The notes under the pieces: generated by a model
The model's database searches: none
Seen by the model: only the letters and a program-made list of their open reading frames with translations
Told to the model about the DNA's origin: nothing
In this document: positions 3,895-52,441 of the stretch, one piece after another
Layout: every line of letters starts with the position of its first letter
Position numbering within the stretch: position 1 is the first letter of the stretch
Translations under genes and position numbers: made by a program
Source of the DNA: the human T2T-CHM13v2.0 reference genome, Homo sapiens
Reading direction: 5' to 3' (one strand)
Assembly: GCF_009914755.1 (NCBI RefSeq)
Contig: NC_060947.1
Length of the DNA: 64,000 bases

Positions 3895-4812
<918 letters not shown>

Positions 4813-12664: not shown

Positions 12665-12975
12665 GGCTAGGCGCGGTGGCTCATGCCTGTAATCCCAGCA
12701 CTTTGGGAGGCCGAGGCGGGCAGATCATGAGGTCAGGAGATCGAGACCATCCTGGCTAACACGGTGAAACTTCATCTCCACTAAAAATACAAAAAATTAG
12801 CCGGGCGTGCTGGCAGGTGCCTGTAGTCCCAGATACCAGTTACTCAGAAGGCTGAGGCAGGACAATGGCGTGAACCTGGGAGGCGGAGTTTGCAGCGAGC
12901 CACGATTGCGCCACTGCACTCCAGCCTGGGTGACAGAGCGAGACTCCGTCTCAAAAAAAAAAAAAAAAGAAAAAG
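12665..12975 (+). mobile_element. AluY-like
   Basis: Diagnostic GAGATCGAGACCATCCTGGCTAACACGGTGAAAC and ATGGCGTGAACC; CpG-rich; long A tail. Confidence 0.93.
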
Positions 12976-14689: not shown

Positions 14690-14890
14690 GATATGCTAAA
14701 TTCACTCATTGCTTAATATTTATATTTATGTATTTGATAAATATATAAGTATTTACAGAGCAAAATCTACTCTGTACCAGATATTGTTCCAAGCTGCAGA
14801 TAGAGTGGTGAACAAATGATCAAAATTTCTGCCCTCATGGTCCTTCTAATCTAAAGAGAGAAGACAAGTAAACAAGAACAGTAAATAAAT
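14690..14890 (-). mobile_element. L2 3' end
   Basis: TTCACTCATT...TATTTA..GAGC...CTACT.TGT.CCAG...GTGAACAA...CTGCCCTCATGG motif. Confidence 0.6.
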
Positions 14891-15195: not shown

Positions 15196-15372
<177 letters not shown>

Positions 15373-22711: not shown

Positions 22712-23035
<324 letters not shown>

Positions 23036-29330: not shown

Positions 29331-29703
29331 AAATGTGGTACATTTACACCATGGAATACTATGCAGCCATAAAAAAGAATGAAATCATGTCCTTTTCAGG
29401 GACATGGATGAAGCTGGAAGCCATCATTCTCAGCAAACTAACACAGGAACAGAAAACCAAACATCGCATGTTCTCACTCATAAGTGGGAATTGAACATTA
29501 AGAAGACATGGATGCAGGGAGGGGAACAACACACACTGGAGCCTGTCAGGTGGTGGGAGGAGGGAGAGCATCACGATAGATAACTAATGCATGTGGGTCT
29601 TAATACCTAGGTGATGGGTTGATGGGTGCAGCAAACCACTATGGCACATGTTTACCTATCTAATAAACCTGCACATGTACTCCGGAATTTAAAATAAAAT
29701 AAA
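29331..29703 (+). mobile_element. L1PA 3' end fragment (older primate subfamily)
   Basis: ORF 29312..29494 matches the ORF2 C-terminus (MWYIYTMEYYAAIKK); L1 3' UTR and A-rich tail. Confidence 0.92.
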
Positions 29704-29789
29704 ATGGTAATCCCATATAGATGTGGAATACTAGGAAATGAGAGGAAAGCTAGTCTGTAGTAATAAAAATGTTCAATTAGACCATGTCT

Positions 29790-30045
29790 TATTAGTTTAT
29801 GTGGGGCTTACTATGTGAAGGCACCATACCAGGCACTGAGGAATGGGGGTGAACTTCTTAGGAATAGCCCCTACCCTCATGGAGTTTATGTTTTTCTAGC
29901 AGGCAAGACTGACCTTGAGCACAATTACATAATGCTAGGAGAGTTCCTGTAACAGGGAGAACCTTACATGGTCTGAGGGTACAGGAAGCATTCTTTGATG
30001 AAGCAATCTTTAACCTGAAACTAAGGAGTTAGTGCATCAACTAAG
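29790..30045 (-). mobile_element. L2 element, left piece (interrupted by the tandem array)
   Basis: CTTACTATGTG..GGCAC..TACCAGGCACTG.GGA...GTGAAC...CCCT.CCCTCATGGAG.TTA...TTCTAG resembles the reverse L2 3' end. Confidence 0.65.
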
Positions 30046-33000
30046 AATGAGCCATCGGGGCAGGGGGGAGTCAGAAAAGGTGAACAGTGTAGGGCGATGG
30101 TATCTTCCAGGAATGATACACAGGGACAGGAGAGAGAAAGGAAGAATGGATGAAGTTGGGGGGATAGTATCTGCCAGGAATAAGTCATGGGGCAGGAGAA
30201 AGACAGGAAGGGTGGATGGTGTGGTAGAAATCGTACCTTCCAGGAGTAACCCATAGGGTTGATAGTAGTGGGGCAGATGGTATGATCTAAGAATGACACA
30301 CAGTGTCAAAGGGAGAGAGGGAAGGTTGGACAGTGGTGGTGGGAGGAGGGAATGATATCTTCCAAAAATTACCCACAAGGGCAAGAAGGGAGAAAGGGAT
30401 AATGGAGAAAGATGGGTGGTGTTTTAGGAAAGACCCACAGAAACAAGGCGAGATGGGGACTGGAAGGGTGGATGGCATTGGGGGATTTTGTCTTCTAGGA
30501 ATGAGCCACAGGGATTAGGGGGAGATAGGAAGGACTGATGGGGCAGGAAGATAGTATGTTCCAGGTATGATCCACAGGTTCAGAGGGGAGAAAAGTATAG
30601 TGGATGGTGTTTGCCATGGATGAACCACCAGGATGGTGGGGGAGACAGAAAAGGTTGATGGTGTGGTGGGATGGTATCTTTTATGAATGACCCAAAGGGG
30701 CAAAGGGAAGGCAGGAAAGATGGATGTTGCGGGGATATCATCCACCAACAACCCAGAGGTGTAGTGGGGAGACAGGAGGTGTAGATGGTATTACCAGGAT
30801 ATGTCTTCCAGAAATGAGCCACAAAGGCAGGGATAAGATAGGAAGAGTGAATGGTGTGGCCTGGTTGCATCTTCCAGGAATGCCCCCACAGTGTTAGGGA
30901 GTGGGGAACAAGAATGGATCCCTGTGGGGGTATGGTATCTTCTAGGAATAGCCCACAGAGTCAAGGGGAAACAGGCAACATTAGGTAGTGTGTGTGTGTG
31001 GTGGGGAAATGGGGCGGGGGTGGGGTGGGGAGAATGAAATTTTCCAGCTATTTCTCTCTCTCTGGGGAGAGAAAGGGAAGGTTGGTTTGTGTGGATGGAG
31101 ATGGTATCTTCTAGGAATTACCCAAACCAGAAGGGTGAATGTCTTAGGGGAAGGGGAATTTTCCAGCAATGACCCAGAGGGATGGTGGGGAGACAGGAAA
31201 CATAGATGGTGAGGCAAGATGATGTATTCCAGAAATGACCCACAGGGCAAGGGGTAGATACAAAGGTGGATGGGGTGAGGGAGATGGTCTCTTCCAGTTA
31301 TGACCCACAAGGGTAGAGGGGACACAGATGGTGTAGATCATTTGGCAAAATGGAATTTTCCAGGAATGGTCCACAGGGAAGAGGGTACATAGGAAGGTTT
31401 GGTGGTGTGGCAGGATGGTATCTTCCAGGAATGAGCTACACTGGCAGTGGTAGGGGGGAGAAAGGAAGGGTGGATGGTGAGGGGTCATGGTTTCTTCCAA
31501 GAATGACTCATAGGATTGTACAGGAATGACCCAGAGGGGTAGCGCAGAGAGAGGAAACATGACTGGTGTGGCAGGATATACCTTCCAGGAATGGTCTACA
31601 GGAGCTAGGGGATGCAGGGAAGATGGGCTTGTTTGCAGGCATGGTTCTTCCTGGAGTAACCCAAAGGGTCAGGGGTGAGACAGCAAGGGTGGATATTGGG
31701 CCGCGGATAACTTCCAGCAATGACCAAAAGAGATGGGAGGAGACAGGAAGTGTGGAAGGTGACCAGGATGGTATTTCCAGGAATGACCCTCAAGAGTTGG
31801 GAGAGACAAGTAGGATAGATGATTTGATGGAGTGGTATCTTCCAGGAATGAACCAAAGGGGCAGAAGAAAACATGGTACATTGTGTTTAGAGAGATGGAA
31901 TCTTCCAGGAATGAGTTACCCTGGTGGTGTTTTCGGGGACATGGAAAGGGTGGGGATAGTATCTTCCAGGATGACCCACAAGGCCAAGGGGGGAGACAGG
32001 ACAGGGTGGATACTGTGTTTGTAGGGGGAGGGCATGTTACTTCTCAGGGATGTGACACAGGCACTGTGGGGACACAGAGAAGGGTAGATGTTTTGTGGAG
32101 GAGGTGGTCTCATCCCGAAATGACCCAGAGGGTTTAGAAAGGTGTAGCAGGATGGTATCTTCCAGGAATGAGCCACACGGTTGGTGGCGGGGGAAGATGG
32201 GTGGTATAGAGAGATGGTATCTTCCAGGAATGACCCACAGGGGCAAGGGGGTGACCTGAAGGGTAAAGGTTGTGAAGGGGGATATCTTCCAGTAATCACC
32301 CAAAGGGGTAGGGGGAGATAGGAAGAAAAGATAGTGAGGCAGGATGATATTTTCTAAGAATGGTCTTCAGAATGTGTGGGGTTAAGTAAACAGGAAAGGT
32401 GGATGGTGTAGGAAGATCGTATCTTCCAGGAATGAGCCACCGAGGTTGGGGTGAGACAGGTAGGTGGATGGTTTTGTAGAATGGTATTTTCCAGGAATGA
32501 GCCACAGGGCAGGGGGTAGATATAAAGGATGGATGGTATGGGGGAGATGGTATCTTCCAGGAATGAACTACAAAATTGAGGAAGGAGGGGAATGATGGAT
32601 GAGCTAGGTGGATGGGATCTGCCAGGATGGCCCACAGAGCCAAAAGAAAGACAAGGCAGAGTGGATAATGTAGGGGAAATAGTATCTTCCAGGAATATCA
32701 CACAGGCAATGCAGGGAGGCAGGAAAGGGTAGATGTTTTGGTGAGGGAGTGGTATCATCCCCAAATGACCCAGAGTGGTAGAGGGGAGATAGGATAGTTG
32801 AATGACAGGATAGTATCTTCCAGGAATGAGCCACGGTGACAGTGGTGGGGGTGGGAGACAGTAAGAGTGTATGTGGATGGTATCTTCCACGAATGACCCA
32901 CAGAAGTCAGGGAAATAAGTTTAGGCAAATGGTATCTCCTAGGAATGTGCCAAAAGGGTAGTGGTGGGGGGAGATGGGAATGGTGGATATTGTGGAAGTG

Positions 33001-36000
33001 ATATCATACAGGAATGAGCCAGAGGGGGTAGTGAGGAGTCAGGAATCATGAATGGTGTGGCAGGATATATTTTCAAGGAATGACCCACATGGGCTAAGGG
33101 GACACAGGGAATGTTGGCCTGACTGGGGACATGGTATCTTCCTGGAGTGACTCAAAGGGTTGGGGGAAGATAAGAAGGGTGGATGTTGTGGGGAATACAT
33201 TCCAACAATGACACAGAAGGATGGGGCGAGACACAAAGTGGTTAAGGTGAGGCAGGATGGTATTTTCCAGGTATGACCCACAAGGTTGGGAGAGTAAGAA
33301 AGATGAGTGATGGTGGGGGGTAATGGTATCTTCCAGGATAACCCTCAGGGGTAAGGGTAAACAGGACAAGGTGGATAGTGTTGAAGGGGTTATATCTTTC
33401 AGGAATGTGACTAAGTCTCTGGGGGGAAACAGGGAAGGGTAGATGTTTTGTGAGGGAGTGATACCAAAATGACCCAGAGGAATAGTAGGGAAATAGGACA
33501 GTTGCATGGCATGTCAGGATGGTATCTTCCAGAAATGAGTCACACTGGTGGTGGCGGAAAGAGACAAGAAAGGTGGATGTTATCATTCAAGATGATATCA
33601 TTCAAGAATTACCCAGAGGAATAGGGGAGAGACAGGAAGCCTGACTGGTGTGGCAGGGTATATTTTCTGGGAATGAGCCACAGGTGTGGGAGAAGACAGT
33701 CAGGTTAGATGGTTTGGTGGAATGAAATCTTCCAGGAATGACCCACAGGGTCATGGGGGAAAATTGAAGGGTAGACATTGTGGATGGAGATATCTTCCAG
33801 CAATGACCCAGAGGGATGGGGGAGACAGGAAATGATAATGGTGCAGCAGGATGGTATCCTCCAGGATTGAGCCACACTGGTGGGGTTGTGGGGGTCATGG
33901 TATCTTCCATGAATGACCCACTGGGGTCGAGGGAAGACTGGTAGGGTAGATGGTTTGGCGGAATGTTATTTTACAGGAATGACCCACAGGGCAGAAGGTA
34001 GATAGGAAGGATGGATACAGTAGAAGAGATGGTATGTTCCAGTAATGAGCTATAGAATTTGGGGAGGGGGGGAATGATGGATGAGGTAGGGAGATGGTAT
34101 CTTCCAGGATGACCCACAGAGCCAAGGGGGAGACAAGGCAGACTGGATAATATAAGGGGTATAGTATCTTTCAGGAGTGTGAACCAAGCACTGCAAGGAG
34201 GCAGGGAAGGGTAGATGTTTTAGGAAGAAGGTGGTATCATCCCAAGATAACCAAGAGGATAACAGGAAAATAGAATGGTTAGATGGTGTGGCAGGATGGT
34301 ATCTTCCAGAAATGAGCCAAATGACAGTGGTGGGGGTGGCAGAAGGTATGGGTGGATGGTATCTTCCAAGAATGATTCACAGAGGCAGGGGGTGGCAGAA
34401 GGTATGGGTGGATGGTATCTTCCAAGAATGATTCACAGAGGCAGGGGGAGACAGGGTACATTGGGTTTAGAGAGATGGTGTCTTCCAGGAATGAGACACC
34501 TGGGTAGTAGTAGGGGAGACAGGGTACATTGGGTTTAGAGAGATGGTGTCTTCCAGTAATGAGACACCTGGGTAGTAGTGGGGGAAAACAGGAAGGGTTG
34601 AAGTGTGGGGGGATGATATCATCCTGGAATGAGCCAGAGGATTAGTGTTGGGGGGGTTATATCAGGAATGTGACAAAGGCTCTGCGGGGAAACAGGGAAG
34701 CCTAGATGTTTTAGGGACGGTGTGGTATCACCCCGAAATGATCAGAGGGGTAGTGGGGAGATACAACGGTTGCATGGCGTGGCAGGATGGTATCTTCCAG
34801 GAATGAGTCACACTATGGGTGGTGGGGGAGACCATCAGGGGGATGTTGGCTGGCATGGTATCGTTGTGGAATGACCCAGAGGGACAGGGCAGAGAGAGAA
34901 AGCATGAATGGTGTGGCAGGATATATTTTCCAGGAATGAGTCACAGGGGCAGTAGGGAAACATGAAGAGTAGATGGTGAGGTGGGATGGTACCGCCCAGG
35001 AATGGTCCACAGGAGCTAGGGGATGCAGAGAACATTGGCTTGTTGGCAGGCATGGTTTTTCCTGTAGTGACCCAAAGGGTTGGGAGTGGTGGGGGAGATA
35101 ACTTCCATCCACGACCCAGAGGAGAGGGAGTAGACAGGAAGTGTGGAAGATGACCACGATGGTATCTTCCAGGGATGACCCAAAGGGGCAGAGGGACACA
35201 GGGTGGATTGTGTTTTGAGAGATGGTGTCTTCTAGGAATGAGCCACCCTGGTGGTGCCTGGGGGGACACAGGAAGAGGTATGTGGAGATGGCATCTTCCT
35301 GGATGACCCAAAGGGGAAAGGGGGAGACAAGGCAAGGTGGAAGTGTTGGGGGAGGTGTGACAGTATCTTTCAGGAATGTGGTATAGTCACTGTGGGGAAA
35401 CAGGGAAGGGTAGATGTGGTTATATCATCTCGAAATGACCCAGAGGGGTAGAGGGAAATAGGAAGGTTGCATGGTGTGGCAAGATGGTATCTTCCAGGAA
35501 TGAGGCACACTGGCAGTAGTGGGGGTGGAGACAGGATGGAAGGTGGATGTGGATGGTATTTTCCTGGTGTGACCCGCAGGGGCAGTAGGTAACAGTGGAT
35601 TGGGTTTAGAGAGATGGTGTCTTCCAGCAATCTGCCACAAGGGTGGTTAGAGGTCCAGGGGATACCGGAAGGGTGGATGGTGTAGCAGGATGGTATCTTC
35701 CAGGAATAAACCCTGGCAGGTGGGTGTTTTGGGGGAATTGTGTCTTCCAGGAATGGACCATAGGGGTAGATGGGAGACAGGTAGGGTATGACAGAATGAT
35801 ATTTTCCAGGCATGACCCACAGGGCAGGGGATAGAGAAGAAGGATGAATGTTGCATTGGAGATGGTATCTTCCAGGAATGAACTACGGAATTGGGGAAGC
35901 GGGGGAATGATGGATGACGTAGGGGAATGGGATCTTCCAGAATGGCTCAGAGATCCCAGAGGGAGTCAAGGCAGGGTAAATAATGTAAGAGGGGATAGTA

Positions 36001-37447
36001 TCTTTCAGGAATATGACACAGGCACTATAGGGTAGACGTTTTGGGGAGGAGGCGGTATCATCCTGAAATGACCCGGAGGGGTAGTGGGGAAACAGGAAGG
36101 TTGGATTGTGTGGCAGGATGGTATCTTCCAGGAATGAACCACACTGGTGGTGCTTCGAGGGGGACACAGGACCGGGGATGTTATCTAACAAAATGACTGA
36201 CAGGGAAGAGTAGATAGTTCTGTGTAGGGGTATAGTATCTTTCAGGAACGTGACACAGGCACTGCGGGGAGACAGGGAAGGGTAGATGTCTTAGGGAGTG
36301 GGTGGTATCATCCAGATATGACTCAGGAGTAGGGGGGAAATAGAAAGGTTGGATGGTGTGGCAATATGGTATCTTCCAGGAATGAACCACACAGGTGGTG
36401 ACTGGGGGAGGCAGGAAAGGTGGGTGGTGTTAGGGGATGGTGTCTTCTAGGAATGACCTACAGGAGAAGGGGGAGACACGGTGGATTGGCTTTGGAGAGG
36501 GCCACAGGTGCGGTGGCTGGGGAGACAAGAAGGGCAGATGGTGTGGAAGGATGGTATCTTCCAGAAACAACCCACAGGGATACAGGGAGACAGGGGTTTA
36601 GAGAGATGGTATCTTCCAGGAATGAGCCACATGGGAAGTGGTAGGGAGAGACAGGAAGGATGGACGTTGTTGGGGGTGGTATTCGGGAATGACATAGCTG
36701 GGAATGGGGGAAACAGGAAACAGGAATGCTGTAGCAAGATACATCTTCCAGGAATGAGCCACGAGGGCTTGAGGGGAGACATTATGATTGGATAGTGTTG
36801 GTACATGGTATATTCAAGGAATTAGCCATAGGTTTAGAGGGGAGACAGCAAGAGTAGATGGTGTAGAGAGGATGATATCTGCCTCTAATGGCCCACAGGT
36901 GCACGGGGGAGATAGGGGAGATTAGATAGTGTTGGGGGAATTATATCTTCCGGGAATGTGACACAGGCTCTGGAAGAGATGGTGAAGGTGGAATTTGGTT
37001 GTGGGGTGGGGGAGGGGGGAGGTAATGATATCCCCAAATCACCCATAGTATTAGGGTGGCAATAGGAAGATTGGATGGTGTAGGCAGATGGTATCTACTA
37101 GGAATGACTTTCAGAGTCAGTGGGGACATGTGAAGATAGAAAATGTGTTTGCAGAGATACTGTCTTCTAGGAATGAGACACACTTGCTGAGGGGAGGCAG
37201 GGAAGGGTGTATGTTTTGGGGGCAATGGTACCATCCAGAAATGAACCAGAGGAGTAGGGGATAGACAGGAAGAGTCAATGGTATGTGGCAGGATGCTACC
37301 TTCCAGAAATGACCCACAGGTATGTGGGGAGATAGGAAAGGTTGGATGATGTGGGAAGAATGGTATCTTTCAAGAATGACTCAAAGTTCTCAGGGGAATG
37401 GGGAGACAGGGACGGGTAGATGATGTACAGTGATGGAATCTTCTAGG
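30045..37447 (+). repeat. Degenerate G/purine-rich tandem array, ~60-68-bp monomer, roughly 110-120 copies (length/period estimate)
   Basis: Approximate consensus GGATGGTATCTTCCAGGAATGA(C/G)CCACAGGGG(T/C)AG(T/G)GGGGAGACAGGAAGGGTGGATGGTGTGGCA recurs throughout; recurring GSFLEDTI/HSWKIP/VIPGRYH peptides in minus-strand ORFs. Confidence 0.96.
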
Positions 37448-37890
37448 CATAGAGGACAGGGACAAGCTTTTGTGAAGGCCTTGAGGTGAGAAGGATATTG
37501 GCATGTTTGAGCAACTGAGTGGACAGTGTAGCTGGACCATAGTGATGACAAGAGCAAGTGGTATAAGGGGAGTTTGCAGGACTGGTCTAGAGGCTGATAG
37601 TGCAGGATCTATGGGCCACATTGAATATTTGTCCTTTCTCCACTGAAGATCGTTGAAAGGTTTTAAGCAGAGGGTTTTTTGAGTTTGGCACTTTTAAAAG
37701 CCCTCATTGGCTATAGTGTGGAGGATACAAGAGGAGATGCAAGATGACCAAGTAGGAGCCACCACTGCTATAGCCTGGACATATTGGTAGCCTGGACCAG
37801 GGCTGTGGCAATGAAGATGGAGAGGAGAGGATGGGTATTGAAAGAAGCTTATTGATGCTTAGAGAGAACCTGGATTAGCATACTTGGAGC
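37448..37890 (-). mobile_element. L2 element, right piece
   Basis: AAGGCCTTGAGGTG...TTGGCATGTTTGAG.AACTGA...CAGTGT.GCTGGA.CATAGTGA...GGTTTTAAGCAG continues the L2 consensus from the left piece. Confidence 0.7.
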
Positions 37891-37906
37891 TAACTCATAA
37901 TTTCTT

Positions 37907-45844: not shown

Positions 45845-45989
45845 TTTTTTTTCCTTTTTTTAATTTAATTTTTGAGACAGAGTCTTGCTTTGTTGCCTAG
45901 CCTGGTCTCCAACTCCTGGGCTCAAGCAGTCCTTCCGCCTCAGCCTCTCAAAGTGCTAAGATCACAGGCATGAGCCACCATGCCTAGCC
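45845..45989 (-). mobile_element. Alu monomer (FLAM-like)
   Basis: Reverse left monomer with T tail. Confidence 0.85.
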
Positions 45990-52040: not shown

Positions 52041-52441
52041 GCCCACCGTGGCCTCCACTACAGACACATGTTTATATTTGTTTTTCCAGCTTTGATAAAG
52101 TATTTGGCAGAAGGCAACAGTCATTACCAGAATAATCATTTAGCACAACATTCATTCATTCAACATTTGATTTCCTACTATATGCCAAAAACCATGTTAA
52201 ACTTTAGAAGTAAAATATTGAATAGGAGGTCACCTGTCGTGTAGGGGATCACAGCCTAGCAGGGGTTTTGGACACACAGGCAGACCAAAGACAATATGGC
52301 ATTTGCCCTACTAGAGGAGGAGGGTCTGAGAGAGTTCATTTCATGCTGAATAGCTACAGGTTAAGAATACTTCAGAAAGAAAGGGCAGCTCTTAAGATAA
52401 ACAGCTGTAACCTGATCATTCAATGTAACCTCTCTCTCCAG

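What the first reader, a model, noticed from the sequence alone, without database searches (positions are those of the whole stretch)
29790..37890. The array appears to have been born inside an L2 element
Seen: L2-like sequence stops at ~30045 (ACCTGAAACTAAGGAGTTAG..CAACTAAG) and resumes at ~37441 (TTCTAGGCATAGAGG...AAGGCCTTGAGGTG). In the L2 consensus as I recall it, these two segments are only a few tens of purine-rich bases apart, and the right one starts with TTCCAGGCAGAGG. The final array core TCTTCTAGG runs directly into it. Inference: a short L2 segment containing TTCCAGG seeded or templated the monomer, which then amplified more than 100-fold. This would be a TE-to-minisatellite birth with both halves of the parent still in place.
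Basis: partly seen in the sequence, partly recalled or inferred. Interest (0 to 1): 0.7.

Follow-up and report, generated by a model that had tools for sequence, protein, structure and literature searches.

The report
Old minisatellite splitting one L2 element
A 7.4-kb decayed tandem repeat in intron 5 of MAOA sits inside a single ancient L2 retrotransposon fragment, but only the last few bases of its 66-base unit can be traced to that L2, so this is an ordinary, undescribed example of a repeat array growing inside a dead mobile element.

Summary
I built a profile from 28 genomic copies of the flank family. The left flank (29797-30020) aligns to profile positions 62-344. The right flank (37436-37802) aligns to positions 382-779 on the same strand. 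Two short anchors lie 7,455 nt apart in the window. In the genome they occur 55-85 nt apart 144 times, against 0 in the reversed-pattern control.

Between the flanks lies a 7,402-bp array (30046-37447) of about 112 units of 66 bp. Units are 64% identical pairwise, and the array matched only itself in the genome. The last unit's TCTTCTAGG coincides with the L2 TTCCAGG.

The 66-nt unit shows no similarity to the missing L2 interval above composition-matched shuffles in local tests. Anchored tests are marginal (41 of 1000; 38 of 2000), and that signal comes almost entirely from the TTCCAGG heptamer. Intact copies leave room for only about 15-38 nt of L2, so most of the G-rich unit has no traceable L2 parent.

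Naming the family L2 rests on a (TGAA)n-type tail and on my recall. Orthologues could not be examined. TE-hosted minisatellites are a known kind, so interest is low to moderate.

The parts
29797..30045 (-). Left half of the split L2-like element. This is its 3'-terminal part, and the element's sense strand is the window's minus strand, antisense to MAOA.
   Evidence: nhmmer with the 28-copy profile: 29797-30020 = profile 62-344, E 2.2e-8, envelope to 30046. It is 57.2% identical to the profile consensus. The family's (TTCA)n end lies at the profile start.
30046..37447 (+). Fossil minisatellite of about 112 units of 66 nt. The G-rich strand is the MAOA sense strand.
   Evidence: 115 monomer-profile hits, 92% coverage, median period 66. 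Pairwise identity is 0.644 and identity to consensus 0.771, with no dependence on distance. Composition is G 36.9% and C 13.1%. It matches only itself in the genome.
30046..30111 (+). First unit, full length and close to the array consensus. It begins AATGAGCCA.
   Evidence: 49.4 bits, rank 4 of 115 units. Its first 9 nt match profile 355-363 at 8 of 9. A competing low-confidence alignment puts the same bases at profile about 377-400.
37436..37447 (+). Last 12 nt of the last unit (GAATCTTCTAGG). These bases are shared between the array and L2.
   Evidence: They align both to monomer positions 55-66 and to profile 382-393 gagcattccagg, with 9 of 12 identical by reading the alignment.
37448..37802 (-). 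Right half of the split L2-like element, continuing towards the element's 5' side.
   Evidence: nhmmer: 37436-37802 = profile 382-779, E 7.6e-16, envelope to 37825. It is 56.2% identical to the profile consensus.
34332..34585 (+). Two young local duplications inside the array.
   Evidence: Exact repeats of 40 nt or more at offsets 56 and 68. TRF reports 100% and 97% matches.
32141..34390 (+). Intermediate-age block duplication: 32141-32912 against 33647-34390.
   Evidence: 74% identity over about 780 nt at offset 1506, against 63-67% for other long self-matches.

Best explanation
One antisense 3'-end fragment of an ancient L2-type LINE in MAOA intron 5 was split by a tandem array that grew at this site.

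The array starts in the purine-rich stretch just ahead of the element's TTCCAGGCAGAGG motif. Its 66-nt unit ends with the element's own TTCCAGG and may begin with its TGAGCCA. The G-rich 40-50 nt interior cannot be traced to L2; it was either a copy-specific expansion of the purine tract or other local sequence.

The unit was amplified to about 112 copies by slippage or unequal exchange, mostly in an old phase. Since then the array has decayed in place to about 64% pairwise identity, with only a few later local and block duplications.

Shown: the flanks are one element; the array is single-locus; the junction overlap exists; the array is decayed and flat in identity. Inferred: growth in situ, the duplication mechanism and the age. 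No function is indicated.
For: - Flank continuity: profile 62-344 on the left and 382-779 on the right, same strand.
- The anchors occur 55-85 nt apart 72+72 times in the genome against 0+0 in the control. They are 7,455 nt apart here, of which 7,402 are array.
- The two flanks have equal divergence: 57.2% and 56.2% identity, against a copy mean of 59.7%.
- A 2-kb piece of the array matches only its own locus.
- The exact 16-nt core occurs 27 times in the genome: 6 in the array and 21 scattered singly.
- No target-site-like repeat or foreign element remnant was seen at either edge.
- The last 12 nt of the array align to L2 382-393.
- Junction test: 14 of 16, reached by 38 of 2000 shuffles.
- Anchored alignment of the consensus unit is reached by 41 and 42 of 1000 shuffles under two gap-lenient schemes.
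- The L2 base G at unit position 6 is the second commonest state (23 of 84).
- Another L2 copy (L049) carries a 25-nt tandem duplication in the same interval.
- Identity does not depend on distance along the array (0.63-0.66 at lags 1-50), and profile scores are even along it.
- TE-hosted and TE-derived minisatellites are common: 7,276 of 31,472 in PMC3389668 (sections read).
Against: - The monomer profile finds no L2 copy at the expected interval (0 of 53 weak hits).
- Local similarity to profile 338-400 is at or below the shuffle mean.
- The best local match of the monomer lies elsewhere (profile 488-543) and is itself not significant (39-133 of 500).
- Under a gap-stringent scheme the anchored test fails (134 of 1000), and the last unit never passes.
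- The 9 nt after TTCCAGG add no signal (1580 of 5000).
- The first unit is near-consensus over all 66 nt, including the interior that has no L2 counterpart.
- With the array masked, neither flank resembles the unit (no hit in either flank among hits to E 50).
- The alignment of the left edge is ambiguous.
- No orthologue was seen, so an insertion of foreign sequence before amplification is not excluded.
Confidence: 0.6

Rival explanations
1. The unit is unrelated to L2. Some non-L2 sequence lay inside this L2 copy and was amplified. It could have been a small insertion or a de novo G-rich simple-sequence tract. The TTCCAGG overlap at the right edge is a chance microhomology, or the microhomology at which the first duplication resolved.
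For: All whole-unit similarity tests are at chance. Only about 15 nt of the family's usual 68-nt spacing are unaccounted for outside the array. The first unit is near-consensus, including its non-L2 interior. No longer-interval L2 subfamily exists.
Against: 12 nt of the last unit align to the L2 bases expected at exactly that point. The junction test is reached by 38 of 2000 shuffles. The first unit starts with 8 of 9 of the L2 bases that follow the left flank under one alignment. No source for the unit was found in the 56 kb around it (best E 1) or elsewhere in the genome.
Confidence: 0.3
2. The unit core derives from an Alu-type (7SL-derived) element, because TTCCAGGAATGAGCCAC is close to the common Alu stretch TTACAGGCATGAGCCAC.
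For: With the array masked, the dimer profile's weak hits at 22746-22722, 15239-15222, 12692-12675 and 45965-45982 are this stretch (E 1.1-13). One-mismatch variants of the 16-nt core occur 1526+1554 times in the genome against 4+10 in the control, mostly as TTACAGGAATGAGCCA or TTCCAGGCATGAGCCA. That these are Alu is my recall, supported by the SRP-type Rfam hits in such loci.
Against: Each hit is at chance level for the window (E>=1). The similarity stops after about 18-25 nt. No Alu remnant flanks the array; L2 does on both sides. Unit divergence from the consensus (23%) exceeds what I recall for the oldest Alu subfamilies.
Confidence: 0.03
3. The two flanks are independent L2 fragments that happen to lie either side of an unrelated array.
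For: L2-like fragments are frequent: three more lie in this window at 4046-4462, 14747-14871 and 52140-52333.
Against: The flanks share strand, have profile coordinates that follow one another within about 37 positions, and have equal divergence. My rough estimate of this arising by chance is about 1 in 100 (strand 1/2 times a coordinate window of about 80 in a few thousand). That figure is an inference, not a computed value.
Confidence: 0.03

Closest known systems
TE-derived single-locus minisatellites of the human genome (Ahmed and Liang 2012, PMC3389668; abstract and section 3 read)
   Same: A tandem array lies within a transposable element at one locus and expanded locally after insertion. 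The initiation models proposed there (slipped-strand mispairing, or exchange between short flanking direct repeats) would fit.
   Different: That catalogue required at least 95% identity between units, and most of its arrays have 2-3 units from young elements. This array has about 112 units at 64% pairwise identity inside a very old element, and its unit cannot be shown to resemble the element's consensus.
Internal tandem repeats carried in element consensus sequences (LTR12, L1PA and SVA, as named in PMC3389668)
   Same: Tandem repeats physically embedded in a retroelement.
   Different: Those repeats belong to the element's consensus and spread by transposition to many loci. This array is absent from the 28 other copies examined and from the genome at large.
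MAOA promoter VNTRs (30-bp uVNTR and the distal VNTR; passage in PMC12776774)
   Same: Tandem repeats at the same gene.
   Different: Those are short, young, polymorphic, upstream repeats with reported effects on expression. This one is intronic, 7.4 kb and decayed. No polymorphism or function is known, and the sequences are unrelated.

Membership tests
LINE-2 (L2) 3'-end fragment (the flanks) | Belongs to a dispersed family with many genomic copies that carry both flank anchors at a fixed short spacing | tested here: met
   72+72 matches at spacing 55-85 against 0+0 in the reversed-pattern control. 28 of the 30 fetched loci align to one another over about 800 nt, E 1e-39 to 1e-115. L033 and L035 were dropped beforehand as another family.
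LINE-2 (L2) 3'-end fragment (the flanks) | Both flanks align to the family on one strand at consecutive coordinates | tested here: met
   Profile 62-344 and 382-779, both on the + strand.
LINE-2 (L2) 3'-end fragment (the flanks) | 3' terminus ends in a (TGAA)n simple repeat rather than poly(A) (passage in PMC4476161) | tested here: inconclusive
   The profile consensus starts ...TTCATTCATTCAAC (reverse complement orientation). 6 of 28 copies have 2 or more exact tandem TTCA units there and several more have degenerate ones. In the window's own copy the tail is not recognisable (29730-29797).
LINE-2 (L2) 3'-end fragment (the flanks) | Match to the curated L2 consensus and subfamily (Dfam/Repbase) | not testable with these tools
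   No TE library is on hand. The profile consensus resembles the L2 3' end as I recall it, which is recall only. Rfam on 20 of the 28 loci gave only Alu-type hits and no L2-derived miRNA family.
LINE-2 (L2) 3'-end fragment (the flanks) | Continuity with a CR1-clade ORF2 / reverse transcriptase further 5' | not tested
   Beyond the profile, blastn found only Alu-length matches among the 28 loci, at scattered offsets. No long copy was sought.
TE-derived minisatellite (criteria of PMC3389668) | Tandem array with a unit over 20 bp and at least 2 units | tested here: met
   66-nt unit, about 112 units.
TE-derived minisatellite (criteria of PMC3389668) | At least 95% identity among units (their catalogue filter) | tested here: not met
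   Mean pairwise identity is 0.644 over 84 full units. The array would not be in that catalogue.
TE-derived minisatellite (criteria of PMC3389668) | Unit similar to the TE consensus | tested here: inconclusive
   Local tests are at chance. Anchored and junction tests are marginal: 41 of 1000 and 38 of 2000, driven by TTCCAGG.
TE-derived minisatellite (criteria of PMC3389668) | Array positioned within the TE | tested here: met
   Both halves of the element flank the array, and the last 12 nt overlap L2 coordinates. Their criterion of overlap by one full period with an annotated TE could not be applied.
Polymorphic VNTR | Copy number varies between individuals | not testable with these tools
   Only one assembly is held.

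The most novel reading that the evidence does not exclude
The array is not just debris. Its best-kept part is a 22-nt core, GATGGTATCTTCCAGGAATGA, that spans the unit boundary and contains the palindrome TTCCAGGAA. That palindrome fits the TTCCNGGAA type of STAT (GAS) binding site as I recall it.

There are 27 exact copies in 7.4 kb against 1 in the other 56.6 kb. Exact 9-mers of the core survive 23-30 times, against 0-17 for the rest of the unit.

On this reading the array is a retained intronic cluster of cytokine-responsive sites, or a protein sponge, acting on MAOA, built by amplification at an L2.
Probability: 0.05. Interest if true: 0.6.

Novelty: new member of a known kind. Interest (0 to 1): 0.27.

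Why it matters
The finding documents an unannotated 7.4-kb structure in an intron of a much-studied gene and shows how it relates to its host element. Standard tandem-repeat finding reports only fragments of it, and it is not among the masked stretches the hub lists.

As evolution it is a routine case: arrays growing inside dead transposons are common (PMC3389668). Its use is mainly practical. It warns that the array can confuse alignment and variant calling in MAOA intron 5. It also gives a clear test locus: an orthologue with an intact L2 would reveal the founder sequence of an old minisatellite.

It matters for MAOA regulation only if the conserved palindromic core turns out to bind proteins.

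Tried and rejected
- Single-sequence nhmmer of each flank against the rest of the window found nothing. Against the fetched loci it gave only weak hits (best E 3e-4). A family profile was therefore needed.
- BLAST-type search of the right flank in the genome found only a 44-nt match to an unrelated multi-copy stretch (17 places).
- Rfam at E<=1 on 20 of the 28 loci, hoping for L2-derived miRNA families, gave 105 matches. All were Alu-related types (SRP, mir-1268, mir-3135, mir-548, mir-1285, mir-619, MIR841).
- Extending the family profile towards coding sequence failed. blastn among the loci beyond the profile gave only Alu-length matches at scattered offsets.
- The idea that the unit equals L2 about 380-445, with the right flank as its last copy, was rejected. 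With the array masked, no flank hit appears at E<=50.
- The idea that the unit comes from profile 488-543 (the best local alignment) was rejected as not significant.
- A longer-interval L2 subfamily was rejected (6 hits against 144).
- A two-half internal structure of the unit was checked by eye only, and no similarity between the halves was seen.
- Minor-allele states at unit edges gave little. Only position 6 shows the L2 base as runner-up, and the edge columns are gap-ridden.
- Literature: no paper on an MAOA intron 5 array was found. One search returned 4 papers and one search returned 16, of which 12 were listed; I opened passages in 3 of these, and they concern the promoter VNTR or merely list the gene.
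- A paper on MAO-A and STAT6 (PMC8192781, passages read) says nothing about intronic sites.
Full report
**What is there**

Reading the two edges shows a purine-rich, roughly 66-nt periodic sequence. It starts after ...CATCAACTAAG at 30045 and ends with ...GGAATCTTCTAGG at 37447, followed by CATAGAGGACAGG...AAGGCCTTGAGG.
- A 14-nt core with up to 3 mismatches occurs 89 times in the window: 83 in 29900-37600 and 6 elsewhere.
- I cut 44 units at core spacings of 60-72 nt and built a 66-position profile from them. Its consensus is AATGACCCAC...GGTATCTTCCAGG.
- That profile gives 119 hits at E<=10 in the window. 115 are on the + strand of the array, 1 is a weak minus-strand hit in the array, and 3 are weak hits elsewhere.
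- Of the 115, 101 have E<=0.01 and 84 are full length. They cover 92% of 30046-37447 (7,402 bp, or 112 units), with a median period of 66 (IQR 65-69). No uncovered gap is longer than 40 nt, so nothing else is inserted in the array.
- TRF reports only six short rows, which fits units that are 64% identical pairwise.

**Are the flanks one element?**

No TE library is on hand, so I made a family profile from the genome itself.
- Two short anchors were read from the window: ACCTGAA at 30013 and AAGGCCTTGAGG at 37475. Searched in the window's own genome at spacing 55-85, they gave 72+72 matches, against 0+0 for the reversed pattern.
- Thirty loci were kept. Two (L033, L035) showed a different matched sequence and were dropped.
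- The other 28 were aligned from -300 to +500 around the match and gave a 939-position profile. All 28 re-align to it at E 1e-39 to 1e-115.
- Against the window, the left flank 29797-30020 aligns to profile 62-344 (E 2.2e-8, envelope to 30046). The right flank 37436-37802 aligns to profile 382-779 (E 7.6e-16). Both are on the + strand, and no hit lies inside the array.
- The anchors match by construction. The remaining roughly 275 and 365 aligned positions are independent evidence.
- The two flanks are equally diverged: 57.2% and 56.2% identity to the crude consensus, against 59.7 +/- 5.2% for the 28 copies.
- In the 28 copies the anchors are a median 68 nt apart (56-76). The stretch between them is 67% purine and ends in TTCCAGGCAGAGG (up to 3 mismatches in 13 of 28; profile consensus at 387-399).

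**Is the family L2?**

- The profile begins ...TTCATTCATTCAAC. Six of 28 copies have two or more exact tandem TTCA units there, and others have degenerate ones.
- Read on the other strand this is a (TGAA)n tail. A passage in PMC4476161 gives a (TGAA)n tail as the simple repeat at the L2 3' end.
- The tail lies at the left, so the element is on the minus strand, antisense to MAOA.
- Beyond that, the name rests on my recollection of the L2 3' end.
- Rfam gave no L2-linked family. I could not reach coding sequence.

**Does the unit come from L2?**

This is where the interpretation weakens.

Tests at chance:
- The monomer profile was run over the 30 loci (about 92 kb). It gave 53 weak hits at E<=200 (best 0.87), and none lies in the anchor-to-anchor interval.
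- Local alignment of the unit, as a dimer to allow any phase, was run against profile 338-400. Dinucleotide shuffles reach the observed score in 458, 281 and 255 of 500 trials under three scoring schemes.
- The best local match anywhere in the profile is at 488-543 and is not significant (133, 39 and 101 of 500).

Anchored test. This was a global alignment of left context + one unit + right context to profile 338-415. Shuffles reaching the observed score, out of 1000, under three scoring schemes:

| Unit used | Scheme 1 | Scheme 2 | Scheme 3 (gap-stringent) |
|---|---|---|---|
| Consensus unit | 41 | 42 | 134 |
| First unit | 34 | 39 | 188 |
| Last unit | 614 | 599 | 962 |
| Half-first/half-last chimera | 148 | 175 | 682 |

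Junction test:
- The test asks whether the circular unit contains TTCCAGG followed by nine bases of L2 340-385.
- It gives 14 of 16 at L2 position 355: predicted TTCCAGGAGTGAGCCA, observed TTCCAGGAATGACCCA. This is reached by 38 of 2000 shuffles.
- With TTCCAGG taken as given, the following 9-mer (7 of 9) is reached by 1580 of 5000 shuffles.
- The signal is therefore essentially the heptamer. I noticed the match before testing it.

Other observations:
- The first unit (AATGAGCCA) matches 8 of 9 at L2 355.
- G, the L2 base, is the runner-up state at unit position 6 (23 of 84).
- The left edge has a competing low-confidence alignment that carries L2 on to about position 400 inside the first unit.
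- With the array masked, a dimer profile finds no unit-like sequence in either flank (best E 1 anywhere in the window).

Arithmetic also limits the model:
- 53 of the usual 68 nt between the anchors lie outside the array.
- The profile leaves 37 positions (345-381) uncovered.
- No L2 variant with a longer interval exists: 1+5 matches at spacing 86-116.
- At most about 15-38 nt of a 66-nt unit can be L2.
- The first unit abuts the flank yet ranks 4th of 115 in fit to the array consensus over its whole length. The G-rich interior was therefore already part of the amplified unit.

**What most likely happened**

- The array is single-locus. A 2-kb piece matches only the array itself (20 matches, all within the array's span).
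- The exact 16-nt core occurs 27 times in the genome: 6 in the array and 21 scattered singly.
- Both halves of the host element are in place, no other element remnant or flanking duplication is visible, and the last unit shares its final 12 nt with L2.
- This fits growth in place by tandem duplication at the purine-rich stretch, not arrival of a foreign array.
- An independent L2 copy (L049) has a two-copy, 25-nt tandem duplication in the same interval. This is an anecdote, not a rate.

Age and growth pattern:
- Identity between units is flat with distance (0.63-0.66 at lags 1 to 50), and profile scores are even along the array.
- The exceptions are one 780-nt block at 74% (32141-32912 against 33647-34390) and two young local duplications at 34332-34585.
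- This pattern suggests an old main expansion followed by decay with little turnover.
- Units are 77% identical to their consensus (Jukes-Cantor 0.27). That is much closer than the L2 flanks are to theirs, but by my recollection of repeat ages it is more diverged than the oldest Alu.
- I therefore expect the array to predate primates. This is an inference: it is sensitive to alignment error and to stepwise growth, and it could not be checked in other species.

**Comparison with what is known**

- Ahmed and Liang (PMC3389668; abstract and section 3 read) counted 7,276 TE-derived arrays among 31,472 human minisatellites.
- They required at least 95% identity between units and noted that old, diverged arrays are missed.
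- This array is such a missed case by position.
- By unit similarity its membership is inconclusive.
- I found no paper describing it (passages).

**Verdict**

The birth-inside-L2 reading is supported for place and host. The claim that L2 sequence templated the unit is shown only for the terminal TTCCAGG overlap. This is a new instance of a known kind, of low to moderate interest.

Noticed in passing
window 30046-37447: The best-kept part of the unit is a 22-nt core, GATGGTATCTTCCAGGAATGA, spanning the unit boundary. Exact 9-mers of it occur 23-30 times, against 0-17 for the rest of the unit. It holds the palindrome TTCCAGGAA: 27 exact copies in the array against 1 in the other 56.6 kb. That this fits a STAT/GAS-type site is my recall. 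The stretch also reads like a weak splice acceptor (TCTTCCAG|G).
   Followed up: partly
window 22722-22746, 15222-15239, 12675-12692, 45965-45982: The unit core resembles a very common stretch, TTACAGGCATGAGCCAC, which I recall as Alu. One-mismatch variants of the 16-nt core occur 3,080 times in the genome against 14 in the control. Short-motif searches for this array will therefore be swamped by that family.
   Followed up: partly
L049 (G000:C1:22102958-22103063): An L2-family copy with a two-copy tandem duplication of about 25 nt inside the same anchor-to-anchor interval that hosts the MAOA array.
   Followed up: no
window 4046-4462 (-), 14747-14871 (+), 52140-52333 (+): Three further fragments of the same L2-like family lie in the window (E 1.4e-34, 2.7e-11 and 4.8e-6). 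None spans the interval in question.
   Followed up: no
window 30046-37447: Strong strand asymmetry: G 36.9% against C 13.1% on the MAOA sense strand. There are 51 CpG and only 2 canonical four-run G-quadruplex motifs.
   Followed up: no
window 29500-29715 and 37892 onward: The split element is bracketed by younger repeats. The sequence left of it reads like the 3' end of an L1 with an A-rich tail (my recall). A T-run followed by a long masked block starts at 37892 (and the hub's mask list).
   Followed up: no
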